Below, piece after piece: positions 115 to 57,483 of a stretch of DNA of 64,000 bases. The DNA is from Mobula hypostoma (lineage: Eukaryota): positions 19,656,001 through 19,720,000 of the forward strand of contig NC_086097.1 of NCBI RefSeq assembly GCF_963921235.1, in the 5' to 3' direction. Numbering within the stretch: position 1 is the stretch's first letter; every line of letters starts with the position of its first letter. A program made the position numbers and the translations under genes. The notes under the pieces were generated by a model. It was not told the DNA's origin, made no database searches, and saw only the letters and a program-made list of their open reading frames with translations.

Positions 115-993
115 AAATAGACCTTCACTTTTCCCTTATATAATGCAACATGTCATACGCGTTCCTCCCCTCTAAATCCTGTCCGCCTCTCTCTATGCTG
201 TACCTTATGGCCCACATTGTAACCCAAACTCCCCTGCCCTGGTCAGCCGCTCTATTGCGCACCCCTCCCTTGCCTTGGGCACCCTTTTCTTACCTGACTA
301 ATTGTACTGTCCTCAAGGATTGTTCATGCAGTGGGGCTTTATTCAGTGTAACTTCTTCCCTTAAACCTGAGGCTTTTCTCATCCTCTTCCTGTGTCCACA
401 GTTCCTGGGTCACGGAGGGAAATCTCACTTTAGTCCCTGGAGTAAACTGGCCAGAACTACTTGCTTTACACAGCTGAGTCGCCCATCTGTATGGGAGGGG
501 TCGTGACTGTCACGTGACAGCACTGCCCATTTACCTGGTCAAAAGACACGCCACCTGCCGATCAAGGTTTGACCCCTCCTCGCCCACCAATGCACACCTA
601 ACCATTGGCCCCTTTAATTAGCCTTGTACTTGACCTTGGGCAATTGGCCTTTGTAATCAACTTAACCCTGCTGGCACTGAGCCATTGGCTTCCCTGTGAA
701 TCACCTGGGCTGGACTCATCAGCCCTGCTGCACTGAGCAGTGCCTGAAAACTTTCAGCCCGGGCAGAACGTGCAGAAGATCGGGGTGGGCTGGAGTTGCC
801 AATTCCACTAGGACTTTCCTGGACATCCATACCAGCACTATTCCAGTGGCCTGTTGGTTGGTTAGCCAAGGGGATTAATCTTGACAGTTAGCATGCAGGA
901 TTGCTTGGGTAGGGAGAAAGGGATTCATTGTTGTCCCTCAGTGCCTTCATAGCAAGCCGAGGTCAAGGGGAAACGTCAAGTCATCACCTCAGT

Positions 994-1530
994 TTAATTC
1001 CACATCCCATTCCCATTCTGACATGTCTATCCACGGCCTCCTCTACTGTAAAGATGAAACCACACTCAGGTTGGAGGAACAACACCTTATATTCTGTCTG
1101 GGTAGCCTCCAACCTGATGGCATGAACATCGACTTCTCTAACTTCTGCTAAGGCCCCACCTCCCCCTCGTACCCCATCTGTTACTTATTTTTATACACAC
1201 ATTCTTTCTCTCACTCTCCTTTTTCTCCCTCTGTCCCTCTGAATATACCTCTTGCCCATCCTCTGGGTCACACCCCACCCCCCTGTCACCTGTCCAGCTC
1301 TCGGCTCCATCCCTCCCCCTCCTGTCTTCTCCTATAATTTTGGATCTCCCCCTCCCCCCCCAACTTTCAAATCCCTTACTCACTCTTCCTTCAGTTAGTC
1401 CTGACGAAGGGTCTCGGCCTGAAACGTCGACTGCGCCTCTTCCTATAGATGCTGCCTGGCCTGCTGCGTTCACCAGCAACTTTGATGTATGTTGCTTGAA
1501 TTTCCAGCATCTGCAGAATTCCTGTTGTTT
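994..1530 (+). mobile_element. 5'-truncated Penelope-like element: GIY-YIG C-terminus plus 3' pseudo-LTR with hammerhead
   Basis: 993-1151 translates FNSTSHSHSDMSIHGLLYCKDETTLRLEEQHLIFCLGSLQPDGMNIDFSNFC*, a PLE endonuclease end; 8-bp TSD ACCTCAGT at 986-993 and 1531-1538. Confidence 0.88.
1397..1432 (+). ncRNA. Minimal type-I hammerhead ribozyme (PLE-associated)
   Basis: AGTC-CTGACGA-AGG(gtctcgg)CCT-GAAA-CG-TC^GACT: intact core, stem I AGTC/GACT, stem II AGG/CCT; predicted cut after 1428. Confidence 0.8.
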
Positions 1531-1964
1531 ACCTCAGTATAGTCACACTTTTACCACTTAGCACTACATTTAACTTTTCTTTGTGTTCTAATTATGTTCC
1601 TTCTTGTCTAATTTGTTTCTCTTTTGAATATTTTGTCTTTGATGCTGCTACAAGTTTTTCATTACAACAAACTTGACTTTGCCTTTGTTTATCATTGTGT
1701 CTGTTCATGCAATAAATTTGACTTTGTTTATCGCCAGCTGCACAAGTGCAGTGAGGTGCAGTACAATAAAAATTAGCAGCAGCAGCATCGCAGGCAGCTA
1801 ACTACAGATAACGCATATTGATCATTCAAGGTGGTGAAGAGAACGGTTGTGCAGATAGGTAGATTTTTGAAAGATGAGGCGATTGAGGGCTGTGAGGATG
1901 TGGCACAGGGGAAGAGTTGAGACCTGGGGTGGATCAGTCACGATCAGACTGAAGGATGGCATGG

Positions 1965-2729: not shown

Positions 2730-2948
2730 CAACACACATCAAAGTTGCTGGTGAACGCAGCAGGCCAGGCAGCATCTCTAGGAAGAGGTACAGTCAACGT
2801 TTCAGGCCGAGACCCTTCGTCATTTCAGGGTCTCGGCCTGAAACGTCGACTGTACCTCTCCCTAGAGATGCTGCCTGGCCTGCTGCGTTCACCAGCAACT
2901 TTGATGTGTGTTGCTTGAATTTCCAGCATCTACAGAATTCCTGTTGTT
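2730..2948. mobile_element. Palindromic Penelope pseudo-LTR insertion
   Basis: ~90-bp inverted arms folded inside the hammerhead core; 13-bp TSD TGGTTTTGGGCTG at 2717-2729 and 2949-2961. Confidence 0.85.
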
Positions 2949-3679
2949 TGGTTTTGGGCTGTGTAGGAGGGAAGGATTAAATTGAACACAGAGTATGTTT
3001 TATAGGTCAGTAGAGCAGTGCAGGCTGAAGGCCCTGTGTTCTAACTTCTGTGACCCTTATGCAAAGGTTAGTGCTGCAACCCTTATTGTTTGTGCTACAT
3101 ATTAATGATTTGGATGTACGTTTGTAAATATGGGAGGTATGAAGGGCCTCAGCCCTAAATGGCAACTATTTATTCCTGTCCATAGATGCTGCCTGACCTG
3201 CTGAGTTCCTCCAGTGTTAGATGTGTGTGACTCTGGATTTCTAGCATCTGTAGATCCCTTGTGTTTGTGGGTGTGATCAGTAAGTTGGCGGATGACATGA
3301 AGGTTGGTGGTGGTGTGGAGAGCAAGGAAGGTTGTCCAAGGCTACGGCATGATACAGATTAGATAGGAAGTTGGACAAAGGGTTAGCAGGTGGAATTTAA
3401 TCCCGAAATGTGAGGTGATGAATTTTGGCAAGTCTCACAGACACAGGACACATACAGTAAGTGGTACAGTGTGATGGAGTGTGGATGAGCAGAGAGCTTA
3501 ATTCAAATCCCCCCTTCCCTGGCAGTGGCAAAGTGAGTGGATAAGGAGGTGAAGGAGCATGTGACGAGCTTCTTGTGTCACGGTAGAACAGATAAATTAA
3601 CAGTTTATTATTAACATACGTACCGAAGTACAGTGAAAAGCTTGTCTTGCATACCATCCATACAGATCCAGTTATTTAC

Positions 3680-11856: not shown

Positions 11857-12252
11857 ATTGGCTGTCTCTCCTCTCTCAGTCCAGGTGAACGGTCTCAACC
11901 CGATATGGACAGTTGATGTTTCCCAGAACATAAAACAGAACAGCACAGTAAGTCCCTTCGGCCCATCATGTTGTGCCAAGCTCACAAGCTTCAAAGTCAA
12001 TCTAACGTTTTCCTCCCACGTTGTCCTTCATTTATCTTTCATCCACGTGTTAGGTTGAGACTGTCAACAATTTCCCACTGCAGATGCTGCCTGACCGGCT
12101 GAGATCCCCCAGCGTTTTTTCCCCTGTACGGTTGAGGGTGACATTCACCAGGTTTACTGGGAGCTGGTGGTGCTTGCGGGATGCGGTGTGGTCTCGTGGG
12201 TCTGCAGGGGCCGTGTTGGCAAAGCTAACATTGTCACCCTGACCTTCTCCAG

Positions 12253-12476
12253 GAGCAGCATGGATTCGGAAGAGGAGGAGGAGGAGAAGGACTCCAACCA
12301 CACGGCTTTTACACTGGACCAGGTGTCCTTTACCTCCCTGTCCTCTGAGGAGCTGTTGGTGAGGAACTTAACACTGGAGGTCAGCACAGGACACAACCTG
12401 CTGGTCACGGGCAACACAGGCACAGGGAAGACCACCCTGTTACGGGTACTGAACGGATTATGGAAGATTGCCCACG
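12253..12476 (+). CDS. ABCD4: ABCD4 coding exon (exon 12 equivalent, Walker A)
   Basis: ctccag|...TAFTLDQVSF...LLVTGNTGTGKTTLLRVLNGLWKIAH|gtaaga; 224 bp. Confidence 0.93.
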
Positions 12477-12594
12477 GTAAGACTTTCAGATCATTTCATC
12501 CAGGGGATTGTAGCTTTTCCTGTCCACCATCTGTCTCAATGCTCCGAGATTCTATGACTGACTGATCAAGACCAGCCAACCTCCTCAGCTGTGG

Positions 12595-18097: not shown

Positions 18098-18190
18098 GTA
18101 CCAAATTGCCTATCTTTCTATATCCCAAAACAACACTCACAACACGCTGGAGGAACTCAGCAGGTCGGGCAGCATCCGTGGAAAAGATCG

Positions 18191-18224
18191 GTCGACGTTT
18201 CGGGCCGGAACCCTTCGTCAGGAC
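18191..18224 (-). ncRNA. Minimal type-I hammerhead ribozyme
   Basis: Minus strand GTC-CTGACGA-AGGGTTCCGGCCC-GAAA-CG-TC^GAC. Confidence 0.75.
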
Positions 18225-18226
18225 AA

Positions 18227-18260
18227 GTCCTGACGAAGGATTCCGGCCTGAAACGTCGAC
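18227..18260 (+). ncRNA. Minimal type-I hammerhead ribozyme
   Basis: GTC-CTGACGA-AGGATTCCGGCCT-GAAA-CG-TC^GAC; predicted cut after 18257. Confidence 0.75.
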
Positions 18261-18395
18261 CGATCTTTTCCACGGATGCTGCCCGACCTGCTGAGTTCCT
18301 CCAGCGTGTTGTGAGTGTTGCTTTGACCCCAGCATCTGCAGAGTATTTTGTGCTTCCTATAGGGAATTGTGACACTGTTGCATTGTATCTCATAG

Positions 18396-23915: not shown

Positions 23916-25268
23916 TTATTGTCATTTTCCTTTTGTATTTGCACAGTTTACCTTTTGCACATTGGGTGTTTGTCCATCCTGTTGTGTGCAGTTTTTCATT
24001 GACTCTTTTGTTTTGTACTTATTCTGAATGTCTGCAAGAAATTGAGTCTCAGGGTAGTATATAGCGTACTTTGATAATAAATTCACTTTGAACTTTAAAT
24101 ATATTTAATGAGGTGGCCTCTACCGCTTCCTTGGGCAGAGAATTCCACAGATTCACTACTCTCTGGGGGGAAAAAAAAGTTTCTCCTTGTCTTCATCCGA
24201 AATATATTCACACAAATCTTGAGGCTGTGTCCCTTACTTCTAGTTCCACTTGCCAGATTATTCCTTGGAAATGATAACTGGTTCCAGGGTTCTGAGTGTC
24301 TTCATCCAGTAAAGTTGACCTCTAATTCCAGTCTCACCCAACCTCAGTAGAAAAAGCCTGGTTACATTTACCCTATCTATACCTGTCAGAATTTGGTATA
24401 CCTCAATCAAGTCTCCACTCATTCTCCTGTGCTCCAGTGAATGAAGTCACTATTCACTATTCACTATGTTCGGCACAGCTTTGTGGGCCGAAGGGCTTGT
24501 ATTGTGCTGTAGGTTTTCTATGTTTCTATGTTTTCAATCTTTGCCTGTAACTCAGATCCTCAAGACCCAGCAACAGCCTTGTAAATTTTCTCTGTACTAT
24601 TTCAATCTTACTTACATCTTTTCTGTAGCTTGTTGAGCAGAGCGGCACACAATTCTCTAAATTTGATCTCATCAATGCCTTAAACAACTACAACGTAACA
24701 TCCCTCCTCCTGTACTCAATACTTTGAATTATGAAGGCTGATGTGCTAAGTGTTCTCTTTATGACCTTAGCTACCTGTGATGCCACTTGCATGGAGTTGT
24801 GGATCTGAATTCCCGGATCCCGCTTTTCCACTGCATTATTCAATGCCCTTTTGTTCACTGTGCAAGTCCTACTCTGATTTACCCTCACAAAGAGCAACAC
24901 CTCGTACTTGTCTGCATTAAACTCCACAGGCCATCTTTCAGCCTATTTTCCCCAGCTGGTCCAGGTCACCTCAGACCTACACGTAGTACATGGTATCATA
25001 TACATTCTTCGATAACAAATTTACATTGATCTTTGAGGAAGTGGAAGAGTTTGTTTGTGGAAGTGAAAGGCTGCTGGTCAGCTCTGAGATGATGGATTTC
25101 TGAGACATCCCAGTGCATAATTCCTTCAGTGCCTGATAAGACATCCCATTAGAGCAGGGTAGAGAACGAGTGAAGTGTGGGTAGAAAGCTTGACCGTCTG
25201 TATTCCCTCCATGTAATGAAGTAAAGAAGATCTGATTCTGATTGGCTTGCTCTTGTTCTTCTCTCCAG

Positions 25269-25345
25269 GTATGACGCGTTGTCTCCAGGAGAAATGCAGC
25301 GGTTGTCCTTCACCCGACTCTTATATCACCAGCCCAAGTATGCAG
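25269..25345 (+). CDS. ABCD4: ABCD4 coding exon (exon 17 equivalent, ABC signature)
   Basis: ctccag|(W)[25 protein letters not shown]|gttggt; 77 bp. Confidence 0.94.
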
Positions 25346-27125
25346 GTTGGTCTATGATGCTGGAATCTGGAGCAACACACAATCTGCCAGAGGAATTCAA
25401 GGGGTTGAGCAGCATCTGTAGGAGGAAATGGGATTGTTTAACAGGATGCAGGATTTTGACCTGAACCAGCCACCGTTCCTTTTCTCACCTGTTGCTCAAC
25501 CCTCTGAAACTAGCAGATAGTTTGTATGTCCGCTGGTGGTATTGGATGTCCACTCCACAGGCTCGTCAGGGATAGGACCTCCTTGAAATCTGGTATCAAC
25601 TGATTTTTATCCCAATTCTTGGTGCATTCCAATCCCCAGTCCTGGATGTATTGACTGTCAGTTAGGTCAGAGGGGTGGGTTGAGGTTAGATATTGGGGTG
25701 GCGGGGAAAGCATTGGGAGATGTTTGGGATCATGGCGTACATTCTTGTTTCCAGCAGTTAGGGGTCAGTGAACCCAAGTGCTTCACTTGGACAACTTGGC
25801 CTGCTAGTGCCTCCGGCTGTACGGGGCGGAGTGCGCAGTCCCAGGAGCCTGCATTTTACCTCTTGTCAGGTGGCACAGCCTACGCTCGGCAAGCATGAAT
25901 TCAGTTCTTCGCGTCACGTTTATTCATTCAAAACCCAAGTTGGCCCCTTGCCCAGCGTGTTCCACCACTTCTGGTCACATCTGTGCACCCAGAAGGGTTC
26001 TGGTTAAGCTGTGGCCACGGGGCCTTCAACCGTTACCCACAGATGGAAGTGGCTGGCAGTTTTTAGTTACCTACTTGGAACAGAGAATATAGAACACTAC
26101 AGCACAGTACAGGCTCTTTGACCCACAATGTTGTATCGACCTTTTAACGCACTCCAACATCTGCCTAACCCTTCCCTTCACGTAGCCCATCCATGTGCCC
26201 GTCTAAGAATGTTTTAAATGTCCCTAATGTAACTGGCTCTACCACCACTCCAGGCAGTGTGTCCCATGCACCTACCACTCTCTGAGTAACAGAAAACCCA
26301 TCTCTGATATCTCCCCTAAACTTTCATACACTCACCTTAAAAGGAAGTCCTTTGGCATTGGCCACCCTGGGTAAAAGGTCCATTCTCCACCTCTATCAAG
26401 TCACTTCTCATCCTCCTTCACTTCAAGCAGAGCAGCCTTAGTTTGCTTAACTTAAGTTTAAATCTTGCGTTATTTAAGAACTAAAACTTCCTGGAGTTTT
26501 GACAGTGCCCGCTGGTGGCATAGGCTATCGGTATTGCGGAGCTGGGTTGAAATGCAGGCCAGTCAAGTGAGATGACGGTTGTTCATTTCTGCAAGATCCT
26601 CTTTTAAATGGGCAATGCCGACTTGCTGGATGTGTCTGCCACTTGACCAATGATGGCAGCAAGAACTCAGTCACGTGGAGAGGTTGAGGTGCTATTTTAA
26701 GGAGAAGAGTAAGCCCTTCATGGTCATTCTCTATCTATCCATCCATCCATCCATCCATCAATCCAGCACGGTGACAGGCCCAACGAGCCCACAGCACCCA
26801 ATTACACCCATGTCACCAATTAACCTACTAAGCAGTACATCCTTTGATATGAGGGAGGAAACCGGACCACCCGGAGGAAACTCACACAGTCACAGGGAGA
26901 CCAGACTCCTTACAGACAGCGGCGGAATTGAACCCAGGCCACTAGGGCTGTAATAGTGTTAGTGTTACAAATGCTGAGGTGATTGGGTGGGATGATTTAT
27001 TACCACCGACATGGACCATCGGGGCAGGTGTCTGTTTCTCTGCTAAGTTCCATTGTGGGTTGGATGGGGACCATCCGGGCTCCAGAGATACCTCTCCTTT
27101 AAATTTGCACTTTTCCTCCTCCCAG

Positions 27126-27241
27126 TTTTAGATGAAGCTACAAGTGCCCTGACGGAAGAGACGGAAGCTGAGCTGTACCACATCTGTAAACAGCTGGGGA
27201 TGACAGTCGTCAGCGTGGGACACCGTAGTAGTTTGGAGAAG
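27126..27241 (+). CDS. ABCD4: ABCD4 coding exon (exon 18 equivalent, Walker B and H-loop)
   Basis: cccag|(V)[38 protein letters not shown]|gtgggt; 116 bp. Confidence 0.95.
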
Positions 27242-27279
27242 GTGGGTACAATGGTTAGAACACAGGACACACTATATGT

Positions 27280-28410
27280 GGTACGTGGTATATGATGATG
27301 TGGCCATTGCTGAATCATGGCTGAAGGATGGTTGTAGCTGGGAAATGAATGTCAAAGGTTGCACACTGTATCGGAGGGATAGGAAGGTAGGCAGAGGGGG
27401 TGGCGTGGCACTGCTGGTAAAGAATGGCATCAAATCAGTAGAAAGCTGTGACGTAGTATCGGAAGATGTTGAGTCCTTGTGGATTGAGTTAAGAAACTGT
27501 AAGGGTAAAAGGACCCTGATGGCATTTATATACAGACCTCCCAACAGTAGCTGAGATCTGGACCACGAATTACATCGGAGATAGAAAAGGCATGTCAAAA
27601 GGACAATGTTATGATAGTCATGGGAGATTTCAACATGCACGTCGATTGGGAAAATCAGGTTGATAATGGATCTCTAAAGAGTGAGTTTCTTGAATGCCTC
27701 CGAGATGGTTTTTTAGAGCAGTTTGTCATTGAGCCTTCTGCAGATGAGCTATACTGGATTGGGTGTTATGTAATAAACCAGAGGTGATTAGGGATCTTAA
27801 GGTAAAAGAACCTTTAGGAGGCAGTGAGTTGGTGGTGAGGAAGGCAGATGCAATGTTAGCATTCGTTTCAAGAGGTCTGGAATACAAGAGCAACGATGTG
27901 ATGCTGAGGCTTTATAAGGCATTACAAGGTGAGGCCTCACCTTGAGTATTGTAAACAGCTTTGGGCTCCTCATCTTAGAAAAGATGTGCTGGCATTGGAG
28001 AGGGTCCAGAGGAGGTTCACAAGGATGATACCAGGGTTATCATACAAGGACCGTTTGATTTCTCTGGGTCTGTACTGGCTGGAATTTAGAAGGATGAGGG
28101 GGGATCTCAATGAAACCTTTTGAATGTTGAAAAGCCTAGACATGATAGATGTGGAAAGGATGTTTCCCATGGTGGGGGAGTCTAGGACAAGAGGGCACAG
28201 CCTCAGGATAGGTGGAGGCCAGGTCATTGCTTGTGTTTAAGGCGGAGATTGACAGGTTCTTGATTGGCCACGGCATCAAAGGTTATGGGGAGAAGGCCGG
28301 GGAGTGAGCTAAGGAAAGGGAAATAAAGGATCAGCCATGGTTGAATGGCTGAGCACATTCAATGGGCCAAATGACTTAATTCTGTTTCTATGTCTTAATG
28401 TCTTATGGTC
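27280..28410 (+). mobile_element. CR1-type LINE relic: AP-endonuclease part joined to RT C-terminus
   Basis: VAIAESWL...YRRDRKVGRGGGVALLVK, then an abrupt jump at ~27826 to RPHLEYC...RRFTRMIPG. Confidence 0.8.
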
Positions 28411-34470: not shown

Positions 34471-34748
34471 CTCGCAAATGAAACCTGCGGAAATGAAAAC
34501 CCACTGACTTGGAAATACTTTTCTGCCCAGATTCTCTCTCTCTGAGTATCAATGAGTATTTCTGTCATTTTCTGTTTCTATTTAAGGAAAGATGGAGTGA
34601 GGAAATCAGGTAGGTTTTAAAGCAATTATGGAATCATTAGTTAAATTGAGAAGGCAGTTCAGGGAAAACAACTATCAAATGACAGACAACACACATAAAA
34701 GTTGCTGGTGAACGCAACAGGTCAGGCAGCATCTCTAGGAAGAGGTGC

Positions 34749-34784
34749 AGTCGACGTTTCAGGCCGAGACCCTTCGTCAGGACT
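34749..34784 (-). ncRNA. Minimal type-I hammerhead ribozyme
   Basis: Minus strand AGTC-CTGACGA-AGGGTCTCGGCCT-GAAA-CG-TC^GACT. Confidence 0.8.
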
Positions 34785-35415
34785 AACTGAAGGAAGAGTG
34801 AGTAAGGGATTTGAAAGTTGGAGGGGGAGGGGGAGATCCAAAATGATAGAAGACAGGAGGGGGAGGGATAGAGCCAAGAGCTGGACGGGTGATAGGCAAA
34901 AGGGATACGAGAGGATCATGGGACAGGAGGTCTGGGAAGAAAGACAAGGTGGGGGGGGACCCAGAGGATGGGCAAGGGGTATATTCAGAGGGACAGAGGG
35001 AGAAAAAGGAGAGAGAGAGAAAGAATGTGTGTATAAAAATAAGTAACAGATGGGGTACGAGGGGGAGGTTGGGCATTAGCGGAAGTTAGGGAAGTCGATG
35101 TTCATTAGCGGCAGTTAGAGAAGTCTGTTCCCCACCTCCCCCTCGTACCCCATCTGTTACTTATTTTTATACACACATTCTTTCTCTCACCTTTTTCTCC
35201 CTCTGCCCCTCTGAATATACCCCTTGCCCATCCTCTGGGTCCCCCCCCCTTGTCTTTCTTCCCGGACCTCCTGTCCCATGATCCTCTCGTATCCCTTTTG
35301 CCTGTCACCTGTCCAGCTCTTGGCTCTATCCCTCCCCCTCCTGTCTTCTCCTATCATTTTGGATTTCCCCGTCCCCCTCCAACTTTCAAATCCCTTACTC
35401 ACTCTTCCTTCAGTT

Positions 35416-35451
35416 AGTCCTGACGAAGGGTCTCGGCCTGAAACGTCGACT
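35416..35451 (+). ncRNA. Minimal type-I hammerhead ribozyme
   Basis: AGTC-CTGACGA-AGGGTCTCGGCCT-GAAA-CG-TC^GACT; predicted cut after 35447. Confidence 0.8.
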
Positions 35452-36250
35452 GCACCTCTTCCTAGAGATGCTGCCTGGCCTGCTGCATTCACCAGCAACT
35501 TTTATGTGTGTTGCTTGAATTTCCAGCATCTGCAGAATTCCTGTTGTTTGCGATCAAATGACAGACAAAAGGTTTCCAGTAAAAGAAGCAGTGGGGTTAA
35601 TGTTACAATAAAGGGACGAGCATAAGAAAAGATGCATCATTGAGGTTTGGAAGCTCGGAGAGGAGGTGAGAGAAATGGTGTCCTCAAAGATTGTTAAATG
35701 TTAGCTGTGAAGTGAACCCTGAGTTACTGTCCTGGCAGGCTTGAAAGAAATCAATATGGAGGGAGTGTAAAATGGAGATCTTTGAGAACTGAAGAGGTAA
35801 ACAGTGCTTTCTGTAGTCCTGCTGGGCGTGTCACAAGGACCGTGGTGCTCAGGTTAACATGCAGTTGGATAGAAAATAGAAGAAATAAGCTATTCAAGCA
35901 TCCCCCGCCATTCCAATACAATCAGGCTGAGCCTCTGTCGCAACACCGTACTCCCACACCTCCTGAGGACATGTTTAGAAATCCTATCAACTATTTCAAA
36001 TCATAGAAATAAGCTCTTTGGCCCAACTCATCCATGTCAACCTCAGCTAGCCCCATTTAACCATATCAATCAAAACCTTCCCTACCTATGTACCTGCCTC
36101 AATGTCTTTTAAACAGTGTAATTGTACTCACCTCTACCACTTTGCTCTGGCAGTTCCTTCCATGTACTCACAACGCACCTGTGGAAGAACTTATTCCTCA
36201 ATTCCCATTCACCCTCCTAATTTTGGACTCCCCTACCATGGGAAAAGCAC

Positions 36251-38261: not shown

Positions 38262-41007
38262 TACAGGACTGTGCTAAAGTCTTAGGTGTATATAGTGCCT
38301 AAGACTTTTGCACAGTACTGTACTTGTCAATGGGGAGCAAAGAGCAAGTTTGCAAATCTGGTGGGAGCAAAAGATGTTGGGAATAGAAACATAGAAAATA
38401 GGTGCAGGAGTAGGCCATTCGGCCCTTCGAGCCTGCACCGCCATTTATTATGATCATGGCTGATCATCCAACTCAGAACCCAGCCTTCCCTCCATACCCC
38501 CTGACCCCTGTAGCCACAAGGGCCATATCTAACTTCCTTTTAAACATAGCTAATGAACTGGCCTCAACAGTTTGCTGTGGCAGAGAATTCCACAGATTCA
38601 CCACTCTCTGTGTGAAGAAGTTTTTCCTAATCTCGGTCCTAAAAGGCTTCCCCTCTATCCTCAAACTGTGACCCCTCGTTCTGGACCTCCCCAACATCGG
38701 GAACAATCTTCCCGCATCTAGCCTGTCCAATCCCTTTAGGATCTTATACGTTTCAATCAGATCCCCCCTCAATCTTCTAAATTCCAACGAGTACAAGCCC
38801 AGTTCATCCAGTCTTTCTTCATATGAAAGACCTGCCATCCCAGGAATCAATCTGGTGAACCTTCTTTGTACTCCCTCTATGGCAAAGATGTCTTTCCTCA
38901 GATTAGGGGACCAAAACTGCACACAATACTCCAGGTGTGGTCTCACCAAGGCCTTGTACAACTGCAGTAGTACCTCCCTGCTCCTGTACTCGAATCCTCT
39001 CGCTATAAATGCCAGCATACCGTTCGCCTTTTTCACCGCCTGCTGTACCTGCATGCCCACTTTCAATGACTGGTGTATAATGACACCCAGGTCTCGTTGC
39101 ACCTCCCCTTTTCCTAATCGGCCACCATTCAGATAATAATCCGTTTTCCTATTTTTGCCACCAAAGTGGATAACTTCACATTTATCCACATTAAATTGCA
39201 TCTGCCATGAGTTTGCCCACTCACCCAACCTATCCAAGTCACCCTGCATCCTCTTAGCATCCTCCTCACTGCTAACACTGCCACCCAGCTTTGTGTCATC
39301 CGCAAACTTGGAGATGCTGCATTTAATTCCCTCATCCAAGTCATTAATATATATTGTAAACAACTGGGGTCCCAGCACTGAGCCTTGCGGTACCCCACTA
39401 GTCACCGCCTGCCATTCTGAAAAGGTCCCGTTTATTCCCACTCTTTGCTTCCTGTCTGCTAACCAATTCTCCACCCACACCAATACCTTACCCCCAATAC
39501 CGTGTGCTTTAAGTTTGCACACTAATCTCCTGTGTGGGACCTTGTCAAAAGCCTTTTGAAAATCCAAATATACCACATCCACTGGTTCTCCCCTATCCAC
39601 TCTACTAGTTACATCCTCAAAAAATTCTATGAGATTCGTCAGACATGATTTTCCTTTCACAAATCCATGCTGACTTTGTCCGATCATTTCTCCGCTTTCC
39701 AAATGTGCTGTTATCACATCCTTGATAACTGACTCCAGCAGTTTCCCCACCACCGATGTTAGGCTAACGGGCCTATAATTCCCCGGTTTCTCTCTCCCTC
39801 CTTTTTTAAAAAGTGGGGTTACATTAGCCACCCTCCAATCCTCAGGAACTAGTCCAGAATCTAACGAGTTTTGAAAAATTATCACTAATGCATCCACTAT
39901 TTCTTGGGCTACTTCCTTAAGCACTCTGGGATGCAGACCATCTGGCCCTGGGGATTTATCTGCCTTCAATCCCTTCAATTTACCTAACACCACTTCCCTA
40001 CTAACATATATTTCACTCAGTTCCTCCATCTCACTGGACCCTCTGTCCCTTACTATTTCTGGAAGATTATTTATGTCCTCCTTAGTGAAGACAGAACCAA
40101 AATAATTATTCAATTGGTCTGCCATGTTCTTGCTCCCCATAATCAATTCACCTGTTTCTGTCTGCAGGGGACGTACATTTGTCTTTATCAGTCTTTTCCT
40201 TTTTACATATCTATAAAAGCTTTTACAGTCCGTTTTTATGTTCTCTGCCAGTTTTCTCTCATAATCTTTTTTTCCCTTCCTAATTAAGCCCTTTGTCCTC
40301 CTCTGCTGAACTCTGAATTTCTCCCAGTCCTCAGGTGAGCCACTTTCTCTGGCTAATTTGTATGCTACTTCTTTGGAATTGATACTATCCCTAATTTCTC
40401 TTGTCAGCCATGGGTGCACTACCTTCCTTGATTTATTCTTTTGCCAAACTGGGATGAACAATTGTTGTAGTTCATCCATGCAACCTTTAAATGCCTGCCA
40501 TTGCATATCCACCGTCAATCCTTTAAGTGTCATTTGCCAGTCTATCTTAGCTAATTCACGACTCATACCTTCAAAGTTACCCCTCTTTAAGTTCAGAACC
40601 TTTGTTTCTGAATTAACTACGTCACTCTCCATGTTAATGGTGAGGGTGGAGTGCCATGGGAGGGGTGTGGAACAGGTGGCAGGAGTGCCAGGGGTGGGGG
40701 GCAGTGACAGGGATTGCAGACACAACCAGCCCTGAAACACCAGACAAGGTCATTTGATTGCAAACAGTTGATTTATTGATCATTACAGATGTCTCTTTGG
40801 TGCTTCCCACCATCTCCCCTCGCCCTGCCTCCTTCCCACTCTCAGTACATAATAGAGACCCATATCACAATCAAGTTTATCGTCATTCACATCATAATTT
40901 TTTGTGGCAGCAGTACAGTGCAATACATAAAATTATCACATTACTGTGCAAAAGTCTTAAGCACCCTAGTTATATATATGTACCCAAGACTTTTGCACAG
41001 TGCTGTA
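38262..41007. mobile_element. Composite non-autonomous Tc1-type element bounded by two mini-palindromes, with a nested CR1
   Basis: TACAG(G/T)ACTGTGC(T/A)AAAGTCTTAGG...CCTAAGACTTTTGCACAGTACTGTA at 38262-38322 and 40937-41007; the flanking old CR1 relic is collinear across the block. Confidence 0.65.
38385..40638 (-). mobile_element. Young 5'-truncated CR1-type LINE with uninterrupted RT frame
   Basis: ORF 38473-40740: KSPGPDG, NYRPVSLTS, YLDFQKAFDKVPH, GVPQGSVLGP, KFADD; (TTCTATGT)n tail. Confidence 0.95.
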
Positions 41008-43919: not shown

Positions 43920-46068
43920 CCGTTTACTTTTGGTTTGATGTACAGAGCTATGTGTCTGCGAGGATGGCCCTCTGTTTCCCCGAAGAGCGCAAGCACTCTG
44001 TCTGGCTGCAGCTGATTGAGGAAGACCCTAGCCAGAGTCAACCCATGTAAATCTGATAACATATACTTGGTCGGGTGCTGAGGGACTGTGCAGTCCAGCT
44101 AACTGAGGCTGTAATAGACACCTTCAAAATCTTTCTGGAACAGTCCACTGACCCCTCAGGCTTCAAGGCAGCCACCATCACCCCAGTACCCACGAGGGTG
44201 ACAGTAACTACTGTCCTCAACAACAATGGAGTGCTTTGAGCGGCTGATTATGGATCATATTAAATCCCATCTTCCTGCGACGTTGTACCTTTCCAGTTCG
44301 CTTATCACTCAAATCAGTCCAATAATGATGTCATTGCTTCTGCACGCCATTCTGTCCTGTCCCACCCAAAAACGGTGCTTCATATGCCAGGATACTGTTC
44401 ACTGACTTCAGCTCGGCATGTAATGGGATCATCCCTCAGAAACAGTCTTCGCTGGGTCTCAACACCTCTGTAACTGGATCCAGAACTTCTTGACAGATAG
44501 GCCACAGTCAGTCCATGTTGGCAGAAACACCTCTAGCTCCATCACGCTGAGCGTTGTCCCTCACGAGAGCTGTATGCTCAGCCTGCTGCTGTTCACACTG
44601 CACTGCTAGAACCTGTTCAAGCCCAATCATCAGGTCCGATGATGACACAACAGTGGTTGGCCTCATCAACAATGACGAACTTCCCGCGTACAGAGAGGAG
44701 GAGGGGCGGCTGGCAGAATGGGGCAAACACAACAACTTATAGCGAGAGGATTCGAGTACAGGAGCAGGGAGGTACTACTGCAGTTGTACAAGGCCTTGGT
44801 GAGACCACACCTGGAGTATTGTGTGCAGTTTTGGTCCCCTAATCTGAGGAAAGACATCTTTGCCATAGAGGGAGTACAAAGAAGGTTCACCAGATTGATT
44901 CCTGGGATGGCAGGACTTTCATATGAAGAAAGACTGGATGAACTGGGCTTGTACTCGTTGGAATTTAGAAGATTGAGGGGGGATCTGATTGAAACGTATA
45001 AAATCCTAAAGGGATTGGACTGGCTAGATGCAGGAAGGTTGTTCCCGATGTTGGGGAAGTCCAGAACGAGGGGTCACAGTTTGAGGATAGAGGGGAAGCC
45101 TTTTAGGACCGAGATTAGGAAAAACTTCTTTACACAGAGAGTGGTGAATCTGTGGAATTCTCTGCCACAGGAAACAGTTGAGGCCAGTTCATTGGCTATG
45201 TTTAAGAGGGAGTTGGATATGGCCCTTGTGGCTACAGGGGTCAGGGGGTATGGAGGGAAGGCTGGGGCAGGGTTCTGAGTTGGAGGATCAGCCATGATCA
45301 TAATAAATGGCGGTGCAGGCTCGAAGGGCCGAATGGCCTACTCCTGCACCTATTTTCTATGCTTCTATGTTTTAACTTGAGTCTCAAAGTGGACAAGACC
45401 AAAGAGATGATTGTGGACTTTAGAAAAGTGCAGGCTGGCCACTCCTCACTGGACATAAACGGCTCCTCCGTGGAGAGAGTTAGGAGCACCAAGTTTCTGG
45501 AAGTGCACATAGCGGATGATCTCACCTGGTCCTTCAACACCACTTCTTTGGTCAGGAAAGTACAGCAGCATCTGCACTTTCTGAGGAGATGGAGGTGAGC
45601 AAGACTCCTGCCCCTCCCCTTCCTCCCCATTTTAACCAATTTTTACAGGAGCATCATCGAGAGTGTTCTAACTACCTAGTACAGGAATTGCAAGGCATCT
45701 GACCACAAGTCCTGACAAAGGATTGTGAGGAATGCTGAGAGGATCATCAGGGTCTCTCTTCCACCCATCAGAGATATTTATCAGGAGCACAGTGAATGCA
45801 GGGCCCTTAGCATTGTTAATGAGCCCTCTCATCCATCACAAACCTCTGACCCCCTCACATCAAGCAGGAGCTCCTGGAGCTTTATGGCAAGGACTGTTAG
45901 GATGGGAAACAGCCTCTTCACCCAAGCCATGAGATTACTGAACTCCCTGCCACTACTCAGGTCTCATCAAGTACTGTGAGTGAGTTATATGTAGTGTGTT
46001 GTGTACCTTGGCCCAGAGGAACGTTTCTTTTGGCAGTGTACATGTGACAAGTGACAATAAACTGAACT
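43920..46068 (+). mobile_element. Rex1/Babar LINE relic interrupted by a CR1
   Basis: DDDTTVVGLINND; LSLKVDKTKEMIVDFRK...KFLEVHIADDLTWS. Confidence 0.8.
44739..45373 (+). mobile_element. Young CR1 3' fragment
   Basis: ORF 44718-45278 nearly identical to the C-terminus of the 38473-40740 ORF; TSD AACTT at 44734-44738 and 45374-45378. Confidence 0.9.
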
Positions 46069-50210: not shown

Positions 50211-51140
50211 CTGGCGAGAGAAACACAAGGACTAACATTAACCACTTCCTCCCCAACTCCAAGGAGTAGCCCTCCCGGAGAAAAGTCTTTCTCAACGTCA
50301 GAACTGAACCCCAGAATAGGCTGGTGACCTCCTGATCTCTCGGAGGTCAACACAAGTAGGTTGGACAGTAAAAAAGGCTTACAGCACATTCTCCTTCATC
50401 AGCTGGGGCAACGAGTACAAGAGTCAGGAAGTCATGATTCTGTTGAGTATAAAACTGCTTCGGCTGCATTTTTATTATTGTGTCCAGTTTTGGTCACAGG
50501 AGAGGTGCAGAGGAGGCTCACCAGACCGCTGCCTGCATTAGAGAACTTTCACTCAAAGGGAACGGTGGACAGACCTGGATTGTTGCTGGAACATCAGAGA
50601 CCGTTGGGAGCCCTGGCAGAAGCGTATGAAGTTTTCAGAGAGACAGATAGAGTTTCTTTCCCAGAGTAGAGGTGTGAAATATAGAGGGCATTGCTTTAAG
50701 GTGAGGGGAAACATTTAAATAAGTGTGTTTTACTGGAGCCTGGAAGCAGCCTCTAGTAATGGTGGCAGAAGCAGTCACAGTAGTTGTATTTAAAAGGCCT
50801 CTAGACAGAGCCATGAAAATCTATCCTGGGCTCAACGTATTGTTGCAATTACAAAGAAGGCACAGCAGTTACTTTATTTCGTTAGGAGTCTGAGGAGGTT
50901 TGGTATTTCACCAAAGACTTCAGCAAATTTCTATAGCTATACCTGTAGAGAGCATTCTGACTGGTTGCATCACCTTCTGGTACGGAGCGGCCACTGCACA
51001 TGACTGGAAAAAGCTGCAGAGAGTTGTAAACTCAGCCAGCTCCATCATGGGCAATAGCCTCCCCAGCATCCAGGGCATCTTCAAAAGCAGATACCTCTAA
51101 AGGGTGGCATCCATCATTAAGAGCCCCCATCACCCAGTAC

Positions 51141-51714
51141 ATGGTGAGACCACACCTGGAGTATTGTGTGCAGTTTTGGTCCCCTAAACTGAGGAAAGAC
51201 ATTCTTGCCGTAGAGGGAGTACAAAGAAGGTTCACCAGATTGATTCCTGGGATGGCAGGACTTTCATATGATGAAAGACTGGATCGACTAGGCTTATGCT
51301 GTCTGGAATTTAGAAGATTGAGGGGGGATCTGATTGAAACGTATAAAATCCTAAAGGGATTGGACAGGCTAGATGCAGGAAGATTGTTCCCAATGTTGGG
51401 GAAGTCCAGAATGAGGGGTCACAGTTTGTGGATAAAGGGGAAGCCTTTTAGGACTGAGATGAGGAAAAACTTCTTCACACAGAGAGTGGTGAATCTGTGG
51501 AATTCTCTGCCACAGGAAACAGTTGAGGCCAGTTCATTGGCTATATTTAAGAGGGAGACAGATATGGCCCTTGTGGCTAAAGGGATCAGGGGGTATGGAG
51601 ATAAGGCAGGTACAGGGTTCTAAATTGGATGATCAGCCACGATCGTACTGAATGGCGGTGCAGTCTCGAAGGGCCGAATGGCCTACTCCTGCACCTATTT
51701 TCTATGTTTCTATG
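51141..51714 (+). mobile_element. Young CR1 3' fragment nested in a Rex1 relic (~50820-51935)
   Basis: ORF 51141-51623 [14 protein letters not shown]...; TTCTATGT tail. Confidence 0.88.
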
Positions 51715-56401: not shown

Positions 56402-56608
56402 AAACACGAGGAAATCTGCAGATACTGGAAATTCAAGCAACACACATCAAAGTTGCTGGTGAACGCAGCAGGCCAGGCAGCATCTCTAGGAAGAGGTACA
56501 GTCGATGTTTCAGGCCGAGACGAAGGGTCTCGGCCTGAAACGTCGACTGTACCTCTTCCTAGAGATGCTGCTTGGCCTGCTGCGTTCACCAGCAACTTTG
56601 ATGTGTGT
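56402..56608. mobile_element. Palindromic Penelope pseudo-LTR insertion
   Basis: ~80-bp arms folded within the hammerhead; TSD TAC(G/A)TGTAAAATGC at 56388-56401 and 56609-56622. Confidence 0.85.
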
Positions 56609-57483
56609 TACATGTAAAATGCCTTGGGATTTTCCATAATTTTCTTCATCAAGACCTTCTGATGTCCCTTTTTAGCTCTCCTGAGTCCTTTTTAAGCTTC
56701 ATCCTGACTACCTTATAACACTTAAGAGCCATGTTGATCTTTGCTTCCTAAACTAAAGTATGCATCTATGCATTCCTCTTCCTCTTGACTAAAAGTTCCA
56801 CCTCTTGTCAACCACGGTTCCTTCACCCTACCTTCTTTTCTCTGCCTCAATGGGACAAACCTATCCAGGACCCTATGCAAGTGCCCCCTAAGCAAGCTCC
56901 ACACCTGTGTTGTGCAGATAAAGTGCAGTGCAGGTAGACAATAAGGAGCAAGAGCCCTGACAATGTAGATTGTGAAGTCAGGAGTTCCTGATATCAAACA
57001 ATTCAATATTCTTACAACAGTGAGACAAAAGCTGTCCTTCAGCCTGGCAGTTCATGCTTTCAGGTTTTTGAACTTTCTCCTTGAGGGGAAGGGAGCGAAC
57101 AGAAAATATCTGGGGTCTTTGATTGTGCTGGATGGTTTACTGAAATGGCAGGAAGTATAGACAGAGATCTTAGAGGTGGCTAGTTTCAACTATCCATTCA
57201 ATTCCACTTAGCAACTGACTGCTGAATTGACCTCTGAACTGTTCGAGGTGCTCCAGATCTAACAGCTCATTGGGTGAGCAGTTTTTGCTTCATTTGCTCT
57301 CCACCATCCCAGTTCTTTGGCTTTATTCCATGTCTTCCAGTTACCAGCCATTCTGCTAATTACTTGTCAAACTTCTCCTACTAATATTTTCTACCTCAGA
57401 CAGTGTGCACAGTCTCTCCCGAGGACGCAATTCCCTCTTCCCTGCAACAAATCTCCTATGATCGATGCAAAGAGTGCACTCAC

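What the first reader, a model, noticed from the sequence alone, without database searches (positions are those of the whole stretch)
986..1538. Penelope 3' end carries a minimal self-cleaving hammerhead ribozyme, sense to the ABCD4 pre-mRNA
Seen: a GIY-YIG C-terminus, then AGTC-CTGACGA-stemII-GAAA-CG-TC-GACT (1397-1432), bounded by an 8-bp TSD. The same intact core recurs at 18191-18224(-), 18227-18260(+), 34749-34784(-) and 35416-35451(+). Decayed copies lie near 2400, 3140, 11880, 13181, 15300, 17890, 29810, 34345, 49510 and 63061. Established: Penelope-like elements carry minimal type-I hammerheads whose helix III is reduced to a palindrome (here ACGU) and which are thought to cleave as dimers. 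Inference: this genome is densely seeded with potentially active ribozymes inside introns, about five intact cores in 64 kb.
Basis: partly seen in the sequence, partly recalled or inferred. Interest (0 to 1): 0.8.

Follow-up and report, generated by a model that had tools for sequence, protein, structure and literature searches.

The report
Penelope-like retroelement end with minimal hammerhead
A recently inserted, cut-short copy of a shark Penelope-like jumping gene sits in an intron of the ABCD4 gene and carries the small hammerhead self-cutting RNA motif already known from such elements, so the catch is correct but of a known kind and cutting itself is unproven.

Summary
Observation confirmed. 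Window 994-1530 is a 537-bp, 5'-truncated insertion with an 8-bp target-site duplication. A contig from a related organism shows the empty site. The insert holds the last ~51 codons of a GIY-YIG endonuclease ORF, a 3' UTR, a minimal type-I hammerhead motif (1396-1433, GUC^G at 1428/1429) and a ~97-nt conserved tail. It lies sense in an ABCD4 intron.

The element is a Penelope-like element (PLE): full-length relatives have RT followed by GIY-YIG. The motif matches the published PLE min-HHR. The genome holds 49,246 copies of the 33-nt core.

Caveats:
- Four of the five intact cores sit in fold-back inverted repeats that would pair as long hairpins.
- There is no stem covariation above shuffles.
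- No Rfam hammerhead model matches.
- Thermodynamics favour inactive folds.
- Published PLE hammerheads cut weakly, as dimers or with protein help.

Conservation of the HHR block across subfamilies and species is real. The scan has met this kind before in other genomes. Verdict: new member of a known kind, activity untested.

Side finding: fold-back junctions cluster in the 5' half of the hammerhead, with more than 7,000 such loci.

The parts
986..993 (.). 5' copy of the 8-bp target-site duplication ACCTCAGT
   Evidence: Read directly. The contig of run X2 passes from 985 straight to 1531, so it carries only one copy.
994..1530 (+). 5'-truncated PLE insertion of 537 bp, the 'long-tail' form
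   Evidence: Empty site seen in X2 record 17. Filled 5' junction seen in X1 record 1 with 0 differences.
994..1151 (+). Last ~51 codons plus stop of the PLE ORF, the C-terminal end of the GIY-YIG endonuclease region
   Evidence: Translation. BLASTP to P0002 residues 400-450, 63% identity, E 4e-20. GIY-YIG lies above the Pfam cut-off in relatives. This fragment alone gives no Pfam hit.
1152..1395 (+). Pyrimidine-rich 3' UTR, specific to the young subfamily
   Evidence: 34% identity to older subfamily copies, which is no homology. Low cover in the distant organism C.
1396..1433 (+). Minimal type-I hammerhead motif. Helix I pairs 1396-1400 with 1429-1433. C3-A9 is 1401-1407. The extra A is 1408. 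Helix II pairs 1409-1412 with 1417-1420, with loop CUCG. G12-A15.1 is 1421-1424. C15.2 and G16.2 are 1425-1426. U16.1 and C17 are 1427-1428. The predicted cut is between 1428 and 1429.
   Evidence: Features compared with PMC4209133.
1434..1447 (+). Variable spacer
   Evidence: 40% identity to older copies.
1448..1530 (+). Conserved 3' tail. The last ~35 nt (about 1496-1530) are the optional extension that is missing from one arm of fold-back pairs.
   Evidence: A 30-40-bp 'tail' at one end is described for PLEs in PMC8557442 (passages).
1531..1538 (.). 3' copy of the target-site duplication
18126..18325 (.). Fold-back insertion of a diverged subfamily. Arms are 99 nt and 97% complementary, with 2 nt between them. 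Hammerhead cores lie at 18191-18224(-) and 18227-18260(+).
   Evidence: Window 18140-18310 folds as one hairpin at -177.5 kcal/mol, z -26.5.
34690..35552 (.). Fold-back insertion with ~390-nt arms and a 16-bp TSD ATCAAATGACAGACAA (34674-34689 and 35553-35568). Cores lie at 34749-34784(-) and 35416-35451(+).
2730..2949 (.). Fold-back insertion with a 12-bp TSD GGTTTTGGGCTG. The turn lies inside the hammerhead, so both cores are incomplete.
56402..56616 (.). Fold-back insertion with the turn inside helix II

Best explanation
Window 994-1530 is a recent, 5'-truncated retrotransposed copy of an endonuclease-bearing Penelope-like element of a shark genome. It probably belongs to the Neptune clade, judged by a C-x4-C-x2-C linker.

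The hammerhead at 1396-1433 is a conserved module of the element's 3' region. It has the complete catalytic boxes, a 5-bp helix I and a 4-bp helix II, but no helix III. One copy therefore cannot build the active site. Two copies must pair through the ACGU palindrome as a domain-swapped double hammerhead.

In the element's own life cycle this module most likely helps to process multimeric or read-through element RNA, aided by the element's protein. This step is inferred from the literature and is not shown here.

The solo copy in the ABCD4 intron is a passenger of target-primed reverse transcription. It probably cuts the pre-mRNA rarely or never.
For: Insertion:
- TSD read.
- Empty site in X2 record 17 (985 joined to 1531, 6 differences in 286 flank bases). 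Filled junction in X1 record 1.

PLE identity:
- The C-terminal peptide aligns to a GIY-YIG protein.
- Longer copies L006 and L008 carry GVIY...LYIGET, with Pfam GIY-YIG at E 6e-4.
- 54 longer relatives at E<=1e-10. The best named ones are sharks. Two 806-904-aa relatives, P0011 and P0016, have RVT_1 followed by GIY-YIG at 25-27 bits, above the 22.6 cut-off.
- Of 11 head-to-head pairs among 64 nhmmer hits, 10 have exactly one arm with the terminal extension. PMC8557442 describes this for PLEs.

Motif:
- 0 chance hits in shuffles.
- 42,891 exact 28-mers and 49,246 33-nt cores in the genome. Reversed controls give 0.
- The extra nucleotide after A9, the palindromic 15.2-16.2 and GUC match PMC4209133.

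Conservation:
- 19 of 64 nhmmer alignments start at q25-29, the 5' edge of helix I.
- Identity of 21 older copies to this one: upstream 34%, HHR 71%, spacer 40%, tail-a 63%. These copies were found through the HHR. For 31 copies ascertained by the tail (a set that also took in young short-tail copies), the figures are HHR 74%, spacer 62% and upstream 33%.
- N7 varies among C, U and A while its neighbours hold.
- Contigs of three other organisms lose similarity exactly at 1397 and 1433. In distant organism C, cover peaks over the ORF end and over 1403-1476.

Weak activity:
- PMC4209133 reports that single motifs are inactive and dimers weak.
- PMC11167929 (passages) reports a protein-assisted HHR whose cleavage is not needed for insertion in vitro, and no RNA-seq ends at the cut site.
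Against: - No covariation: 86.8% of cells paired against 87.1% in shuffles, and 380 of 500 shuffles are at least as high. Only one-sided U.G<->C-G and G.U<->G-C changes occur.
- No Rfam hammerhead family matches, even at E<=10 on 91 bases.
- The 10.1-11.1 pair is G.U here, not the G-C stressed in PMC4209133.
- The predicted monomer MFE (-11.7 kcal/mol) pairs GACG with CGUC. The plain hammerhead fold scores -7.7. The dimer MFE (-31.7) is an extended duplex, against -12.9 for the double hammerhead.
- Conservation of the HHR block could reflect RT binding rather than cleavage.
- Copies end 100 nt 3' of the cut site, so their templates were uncut at that hammerhead.
- RT was not shown in this copy, nor in L029 fragments (0 Pfam hits).
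Confidence: 0.8

Rival explanations
1. Active intronic ribozyme. Sense-strand cores in introns pair in trans with other copies, either in the same pre-mRNA or among abundant element transcripts. They cleave host pre-mRNAs such as ABCD4 often enough to matter.
For: - The core is intact, has the favoured GUC triplet and is sense.
- About 49,000 potential partners exist.
- Other + strand cores lie at 18227 and 35416.
- Dimer cleavage is reported for PLE hammerheads (PMC4209133; the Lunse et al. title was seen only in the reference list of PMC6765202).
Against: - Published activity is low or protein-dependent (PMC4209133, PMC11167929 passages).
- The predicted folds favour inactive pairings.
- The nearest sense partners are themselves locked in hairpins.
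- Such copies are tolerated at high density in both orientations: 13 plus-strand and 9 minus-strand in the window, and 24,589 forward against 24,657 reverse genome-wide.
Confidence: 0.08
2. The hammerhead-shaped module is kept mainly as a recognition or folding element for the element's RT-EN protein, or for priming. Cleavage would be a dispensable side activity.
For: - The HHR and the adjoining tail are conserved together as one ~135-nt module, while the 3' UTR and spacer are not.
- All inserted copies derive from templates that were uncut at this site.
- PMC11167929 (passages) reports that catalytic mutants do not affect insertion in vitro and that protein is needed for cleavage.
- PMC8557442 (passages) notes that PLE clades without HHR proliferate well.
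Against: - The pattern of variation follows catalytic rules: the boxes are fixed and N7 is free.
- Plant, fungal and protist PLEs carry efficient hammerheads (PMC4209133).
Confidence: 0.12
3. The motif is a chance match to the hammerhead consensus with no biological meaning.
For: - Rfam models do not match.
- No covariation.
Against: - 0 matches in 100 shuffles against 5 observed.
- Reversed-pattern controls give 0 against about 49,000.
- The motif occupies the position where PLEs are known to carry HHRs.
- It is conserved across subfamilies and organisms.
Confidence: 0.01

Closest known systems
Minimal hammerheads (min-HHR) in the pseudo-LTRs of metazoan Penelope-like elements (Cervera & De la Pena 2014, PMC4209133; fish Xena, Poseidon and Neptune elements, coelacanth, Xenopus)
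   Same: - Type-I topology.
- CUGANGA, GAAA and UH boxes.
- No helix III, with a palindromic 15.2-16.2.
- An extra nucleotide between A9 and 10.1.
- A short helix I.
- Location in the PLE 3' or pLTR region.
- Thousands of mostly solo copies.
- Pairs on opposite strands.
   Different: - Helix II is only 4 bp (G.U, G-C, G-C, U.G), against 7-8 bp in the Schistosoma families.
- 10.1-11.1 is G.U in the young subfamily.
- About 49,000 intact 33-nt cores, against the ~4,000 and ~9,000 min-HHRs reported for coelacanth and Xenopus.
- No compensatory changes in the sample examined here.
- My two searches found no paper on shark PLE hammerheads.
Poseidon PLE of Anolis carolinensis, PAc (Frangieh et al. 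2024, PMC11167929, passages read)
   Same: - RT-GIY-YIG element with an HHR.
- Two classes of 3' end and a 'tail' signature.
- Insertions derive from RNA uncut at the HHR.
   Different: - In PAc the ORF starts inside the HHR. Here the HHR lies ~245 nt after the stop codon of the preceding unit, and the position of the ORF start was not determined.
- No biochemistry was done here.
Animal non-LTR retrozymes (tandem type-I HHR repeats; Li et al. 2026 bioRxiv 10.64898/2026.07.22.740005, abstract and passages)
   Same: A type-I or minimal HHR related to PLE pLTRs. One chondrichthyan was sampled there.
   Different: Retrozymes are head-to-tail arrays that yield circular RNAs. This is a solo, TSD-bounded, ORF-bearing PLE fragment, and the paired copies here are head-to-head.

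Membership tests
PLE min-HHR (Cervera & De la Pena 2014) | Conserved boxes C3-U4-G5-A6-N7-G8-A9, G12-A13-A14 and A15.1...U16.1-H17, in type-I order | tested here: met
   CTGACGA at 1401-1407, GAAA at 1421-1424 and TC at 1427-1428. Pattern controls.
PLE min-HHR (Cervera & De la Pena 2014) | Helix III absent or 1 bp, with palindromic 15.2-16.2 that allows a dimeric helix III | tested here: met
   A-CG-U at 1424-1427 with no loop. The double-hammerhead pairing can be drawn, at -12.9 kcal/mol.
PLE min-HHR (Cervera & De la Pena 2014) | Unpaired nucleotide between A9 and 10.1 | tested here: met
   A1408. It is A in 18 of 21 older copies.
PLE min-HHR (Cervera & De la Pena 2014) | G10.1-C11.1 base pair | tested here: inconclusive
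   This copy has G1409.U1420. In A2 the counts are GU 14, GC 7, AU 1 and other 5. A T>C variant at 1420 makes up about a fifth to a quarter of the depth in X1 and X2.
PLE min-HHR (Cervera & De la Pena 2014) | Consensus families with covariation or compensatory changes in helices I and II | tested here: not met
   28 distinct sequences and 9 pairs. Covariation score 0.188 against 0.192 in shuffles. There are 3 double-change cells.
PLE min-HHR (Cervera & De la Pena 2014) | Self-cleavage at H17, as a dimer | not testable with these tools
   No listed run is on record as RNA, and all runs are held as contigs.
Rfam hammerhead families (release 15) | Match to a hammerhead covariance model | tested here: not met
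   No hammerhead hit at gathering score, none at E<=10 on the whole window, and none at E<=10 on 1370-1460. This is expected for a motif without helix III.
Endonuclease-bearing Penelope-like elements | A single ORF with RT followed by a C-terminal GIY-YIG endonuclease | tested here: met
   Shown for relatives: P0011 and P0016 have RVT_1 and then GIY-YIG above the cut-off, at 44-47% identity to L006. The window copy keeps only the ORF's end. L006 and L008 score 20.5 bits, just under the 22.6 cut-off.
Endonuclease-bearing Penelope-like elements | 5'-truncated copies, an adjacent inverted 5'-truncated copy, and a 30-40-bp tail at only one end | tested here: met
   Four fold-back insertions in the window. 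Twelve of 16 close neighbour pairs are head-to-head. Ten of 11 pairs have one long and one short arm.
Neptune/Nematis clades of PLEs | A CX2-5CxxC motif in the linker before the endonuclease (as given in PMC8557442 passages) | tested here: met
   C-KRNK-C-YT-C in L006 and L008. No phylogeny was made, so the clade is a lead only.
Non-LTR retrozyme | Two or more head-to-tail units, each with a complete HHR | tested here: not met
   The copy is bounded by its TSD. No same-strand HHR lies within 1.3 kb.

The most novel reading that the evidence does not exclude
The hammerhead module may double as the preferred snap-back point of PLE cDNA. Read as DNA, its own inverted repeats could seed the head-to-head insertions typical of PLEs. 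These repeats are helix I, the GUC/GAC triplets and the GACG/CGUC pairing.

On this reading, thousands of 'intact ribozymes' actually sit in long dsRNA-forming hairpins inside genes. A bolder variant is that arms starting exactly at G1.1 record in vivo ribozyme cleavage of template RNA.
Probability: 0.3. Interest if true: 0.5.

Novelty: new member of a known kind. Interest (0 to 1): 0.3.

Why it matters
This is a correct recognition of a ribozyme-bearing retroelement. It adds a cartilaginous-fish family with an unusually high number of intact cores and evidence of recent activity, since an empty site survives in a related organism.

It would matter more if sense-strand intronic copies cut host pre-mRNAs. 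It would also matter more if the fold-back hot spot explains how PLEs make their inverted repeats. Neither is shown. As it stands, the finding mainly helps annotation. It also warns that many 'intact' cores are buried in hairpins.

Tried and rejected
- **Rfam.** Run at gathering score and at E<=10. It returned only sub-threshold miRNA- and snoRNA-like hits, which are the fold-back insertions themselves.
- **First DNA alignment.** A1 used wrong coordinates and was discarded.
- **RNA evidence.** No RNA holder was listed, and all 23 runs are held as contigs of guessed kind. The laying therefore says nothing on expression, RNA ends or cleavage (table 6: none).
- **Stem covariation.** None for the hammerhead. 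None for a 7-nt GAUGCUG/CAGCAUC complementarity in the tail.
- **Tail structure.** RNAalifold finds no convincing tail structure, at -1.8 kcal/mol.
- **Pfam on the window's 84-aa frame and on L029 fragments.** No hits.
- **Cleavage footprint in DNA.** Fold-back arms starting at G1.1 are common. GTC/GAC microhomology explains them equally well, and 0 of 64 nhmmer hits start at q58-62.
- **Lunse et al. paper.** Not held.
- **Earlier notes.** The scan holds no notes on this genome.

Full report
**What is there**

Window 1397-1432(+) reads AGTC-CTGACGA-AGGGTCTCGGCCT-GAAA-CG-TC-GACT. ACCTCAGT stands at 986-993 and again at 1531-1538.

A descriptor, CTGANGA-N6-30-GAAACGTC, finds five places: 1401+, 18194-, 18230+, 34753- and 35420+. 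It finds none in 100 dinucleotide-preserving shuffles. The whole 36-mer is identical at 1397+, 34749- and 35416+.

**It is an insertion, and a recent one**

I laid contigs of four public runs on 700-1800.
- One 464-nt contig of run X2 (organism B) lies on 700-985 and continues directly at 1531-1648. It has 6 differences in the first 286 bases. This is the empty site with a single copy of the 8-mer.
- A contig of X1 bridges 705-1021 without any difference, which is the filled site.

The insert is therefore 994-1530, 537 bp.

**It is a Penelope-like element**

- The frame ending at TAA 1149-1151 gives ...FNSTSHSHSDMSIHGLLYCKDETTLRLEEQHLIFCLGSLQPDGMNIDFSNFC*.
- From the residue that starts at the 5' junction, this aligns to residues 400-450 of a whale-shark protein, P0002, at 63% identity and E 4e-20.
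- P0002 has a GIY-YIG match over residues 355-432 at 23.2 bits, against a cut-off of 22.6.
- Longer genomic copies (L006, L008) read ...YPCKRNKCYTCPY...GVIYCVRCSRCGLLYIGETRRRLGDRFAEH... They score 20.5 bits for GIY-YIG, just under the cut-off.
- A search for longer relatives gave 54 proteins at E<=1e-10. The closest named ones are from Rhincodon and Chiloscyllium.
- Relatives P0011 (806 aa) and P0016 (904 aa) have RVT_1 followed by GIY-YIG at 25.0 and 27.2 bits.
- The C-x4-C-x2-C linker fits the CX2-5CxxC motif that PMC8557442 (passages) ascribes to Neptune and Nematis. I made no tree.
- RT was not detected in the fragments I could reach. L029 gave 0 Pfam hits, although FLRYIDD is visible.

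**Host gene**

- The ORF at 12095-12565(+) matches ABCD4 structures over residues 382-445, at E 2.7e-15.
- The ORF at 27047-27292(+) matches only ABCD4, over residues 526-589, at E 3e-14.
- An LSPGE signature exon lies at 25225-25461(+).
- ABC_membrane_2 exons lie on the same strand just upstream of the window, at C1:19,642,750-19,647,959.

The insert is therefore inside the gene and in sense. That it is intronic is inferred from the lack of coding signal around it.

**Anatomy against the published family**

I read parts 1-2 of 4 of Cervera & De la Pena 2014 (PMC4209133). Metazoan PLE hammerheads have four traits:
- They are type I.
- They lack helix III.
- They have a palindromic 15.2-16.2.
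- They carry an extra nucleotide between A9 and 10.1, with a short helix I.

Single motifs did not cleave in vitro, and dimers cleaved weakly.

The motif here has all the boxes:
- A1408 is the extra nucleotide.
- A-CG-U serves as the helix-III palindrome.
- GUC is the cleavage triplet.
- Helix I has 5 pairs (U.G, A-U, G-C, U-A, C-G).
- Helix II has 4 pairs (G.U, G-C, G-C, U.G) and a CUCG loop.

It departs in having G.U instead of G-C at 10.1-11.1.

Rfam's hammerhead models do not see it at any threshold tried.

**Scale**

- The exact 28-mer core occurs 42,891 times in the 3.48-Gb genome.
- A 33-nt version with N7 and 11.1 relaxed occurs 49,246 times.
- Reversed controls give 0.
- A covariance model built from 30 copies (A2, R1) finds 62 copies in 290 kb held. 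Of these, 17 are intact by strict criteria.
- Broken down, that is 22 copies (4 intact) in the window and 30 copies (6 intact) in 200 kb taken at arbitrary places.
- Decay is mostly at the three CpGs of CUGACGA and ACGUCG.

**Conservation and covariation**

Covariation is absent. On 28 distinct sequences, 86.8% of cells pair, against 87.1% after shuffling. The only systematic variation is one-sided:
- U.G/C-G at the outer helix I pair (14:12).
- G.U/G-C at 10.1-11.1 (14:7).

Conservation is real.
- 19 of 64 nhmmer alignments begin at q25-29, the 5' edge of helix I.
- Twenty-one older copies are 34% identical to this one upstream, 71% in the hammerhead, 40% in the spacer and 63% in the first part of the tail. 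These copies were ascertained through the hammerhead.
- Thirty-one copies ascertained by the tail, a set that also took in young short-tail copies, give 74%, 62% and 33% for hammerhead, spacer and upstream.
- N7 is C, U or A while its neighbours hold.
- In contigs of three other organisms, similarity stops at 1397 and at 1433.
- In the most distant organism (X9), summed depth peaks over the ORF end and over 1403-1476. It is low over 1144-1365. Contig depth is a rough measure.

**Would it cut?**

Folding gives no encouragement.
- The monomer MFE (-11.7 kcal/mol) pairs GACG of the box with CGUC of the cleavage site.
- In a longer context, CUCUUCC pairs with GAAGGG.
- The plain hammerhead fold scores -7.7.
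- The dimer MFE is an extended duplex at -31.7, against -12.9 for the double hammerhead.

These energies ignore tertiary contacts.

The literature points the same way.
- Frangieh et al. 2024 (PMC11167929, passages) found a PLE hammerhead that cleaves only with the element's protein.
- In that work catalytic mutants still inserted in vitro, and no RNA-seq ends were seen at the cut site.
- Craig et al. 2021 (PMC8557442, passages) call the function unclear.

All copies here extend ~100 nt past the cut site. Their templates were therefore uncut there.

**The other 'intact cores'**

- 18126-18325 is a fold-back with 99-nt arms that are 97% complementary, with 2 nt between them. It folds as one hairpin at -177.5 kcal/mol, z -26.5.
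- 34690-35552 is a fold-back with ~390-nt arms and a 16-bp TSD.

Only the core at 1397 is a solo copy. Two more fold-backs, at 2730-2949 (with a 12-bp TSD) and at 56402-56616, turn inside the hammerhead.

**Side finding**

- Among the first 100 exact cores on contig 1, 16 neighbour pairs lie within 5 kb. Twelve are head-to-head, two are tail-to-tail and two are on the same strand.
- Genome-wide I counted loci with two intact GAAACGTCGACTG 13-mers head-to-head. There are 1,463, 4,138, 1,082 and 569 loci for gaps of 0-30, 31-60, 61-90 and 91-120 nt. The turn therefore peaks in the 5' half of the hammerhead.
- A second pattern finds 1,196 loci that turn at or just 5' of the cut site. In the 50 listed, 4 are CAGTC|GACTG, about 16 have one arm starting exactly at G1.1, and about 12 are ambiguous (classified by eye).
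- The recurrent junctions (CAGTC|TCGGCC, CAGTC|GACGAAGGG, CAGTC|CTGACGA) all share GTC/GAC(G) microhomology. They fit cDNA snap-back.
- No nhmmer hit starts at q58-62 (0 of 64). I therefore do not read these junctions as cleavage footprints.

**Prior art and verdict**

PLE min-HHRs are published. My searches found no paper on shark PLE hammerheads. One preprint sampled one chondrichthyan for tandem retrozymes (10.64898/2026.07.22.740005, passages). Its supplements are closed and may list such families.

The scan has noted the same kind in other genomes. Verdict: a new member of a known kind. Its activity is untested.

Noticed in passing
genome-wide; window examples 2730-2949, 18126-18325, 56402-56616: Head-to-head fold-back insertions turn preferentially in the 5' half of the hammerhead. 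Loci with two intact 13-mers number 1,463, 4,138, 1,082 and 569 for gaps of 0-30, 31-60, 61-90 and 91-120 nt. The recurrent junctions share GTC/GAC microhomology.
   Followed up: partly
window 1448-1530 and 24 related tails (A4): The ~83-nt tail after the hammerhead is strongly conserved in sequence across subfamilies (GATGCTGCCTGRCCTGCTG...TTTCCAGCATCTGCAGA). It has no supported consensus fold. A 7-nt GAUGCUG/CAGCAUC complementarity shows no covariation.
   Followed up: yes
64 nhmmer hits: There are two classes of 3' end, ending near q127-135 or at q160. In 10 of 11 head-to-head pairs, one arm is long and the other short. This is the PLE 'tail at one end' signature.
   Followed up: partly
window 2787-2856, 35009-35195, 56495-56553: Sub-threshold Rfam hits to miRNA and snoRNA families (mir-3926, MIR2118, snoR125) are artefacts of the fold-back insertions. 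Such hairpins in introns could still feed dsRNA pathways.
   Followed up: no
window 38473-40749(-); also 44676-45278(+), 51030-51623(+): A 758-aa open frame with RVT_1 (E 6e-34) belongs to a non-PLE LINE-like element. Related C-terminal fragments lie nearby.
   Followed up: no
window 1383-1389, 1437-1443 against 1407-1412; 1403-1406 against 1425-1428: CUCUUCC on both sides of the hammerhead can pair with GAAGGG. GACG of the catalytic box can pair with CGUC at the cut site. These alternative folds would hold the motif inactive.
   Followed up: partly
L029 183-1088(+) next to L006 1931-2731(-): Two PLE ORF fragments lie head-to-head at C1:~281.5 kb. One carries FLRYIDD and is interrupted after ...YYKPTDS by unrelated sequence.
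   Followed up: no
L012 4963-5207(-): Two same-strand partial copies (q1-114 followed by q42-159) may be a partial tandem (pLTR-like) arrangement.
   Followed up: no
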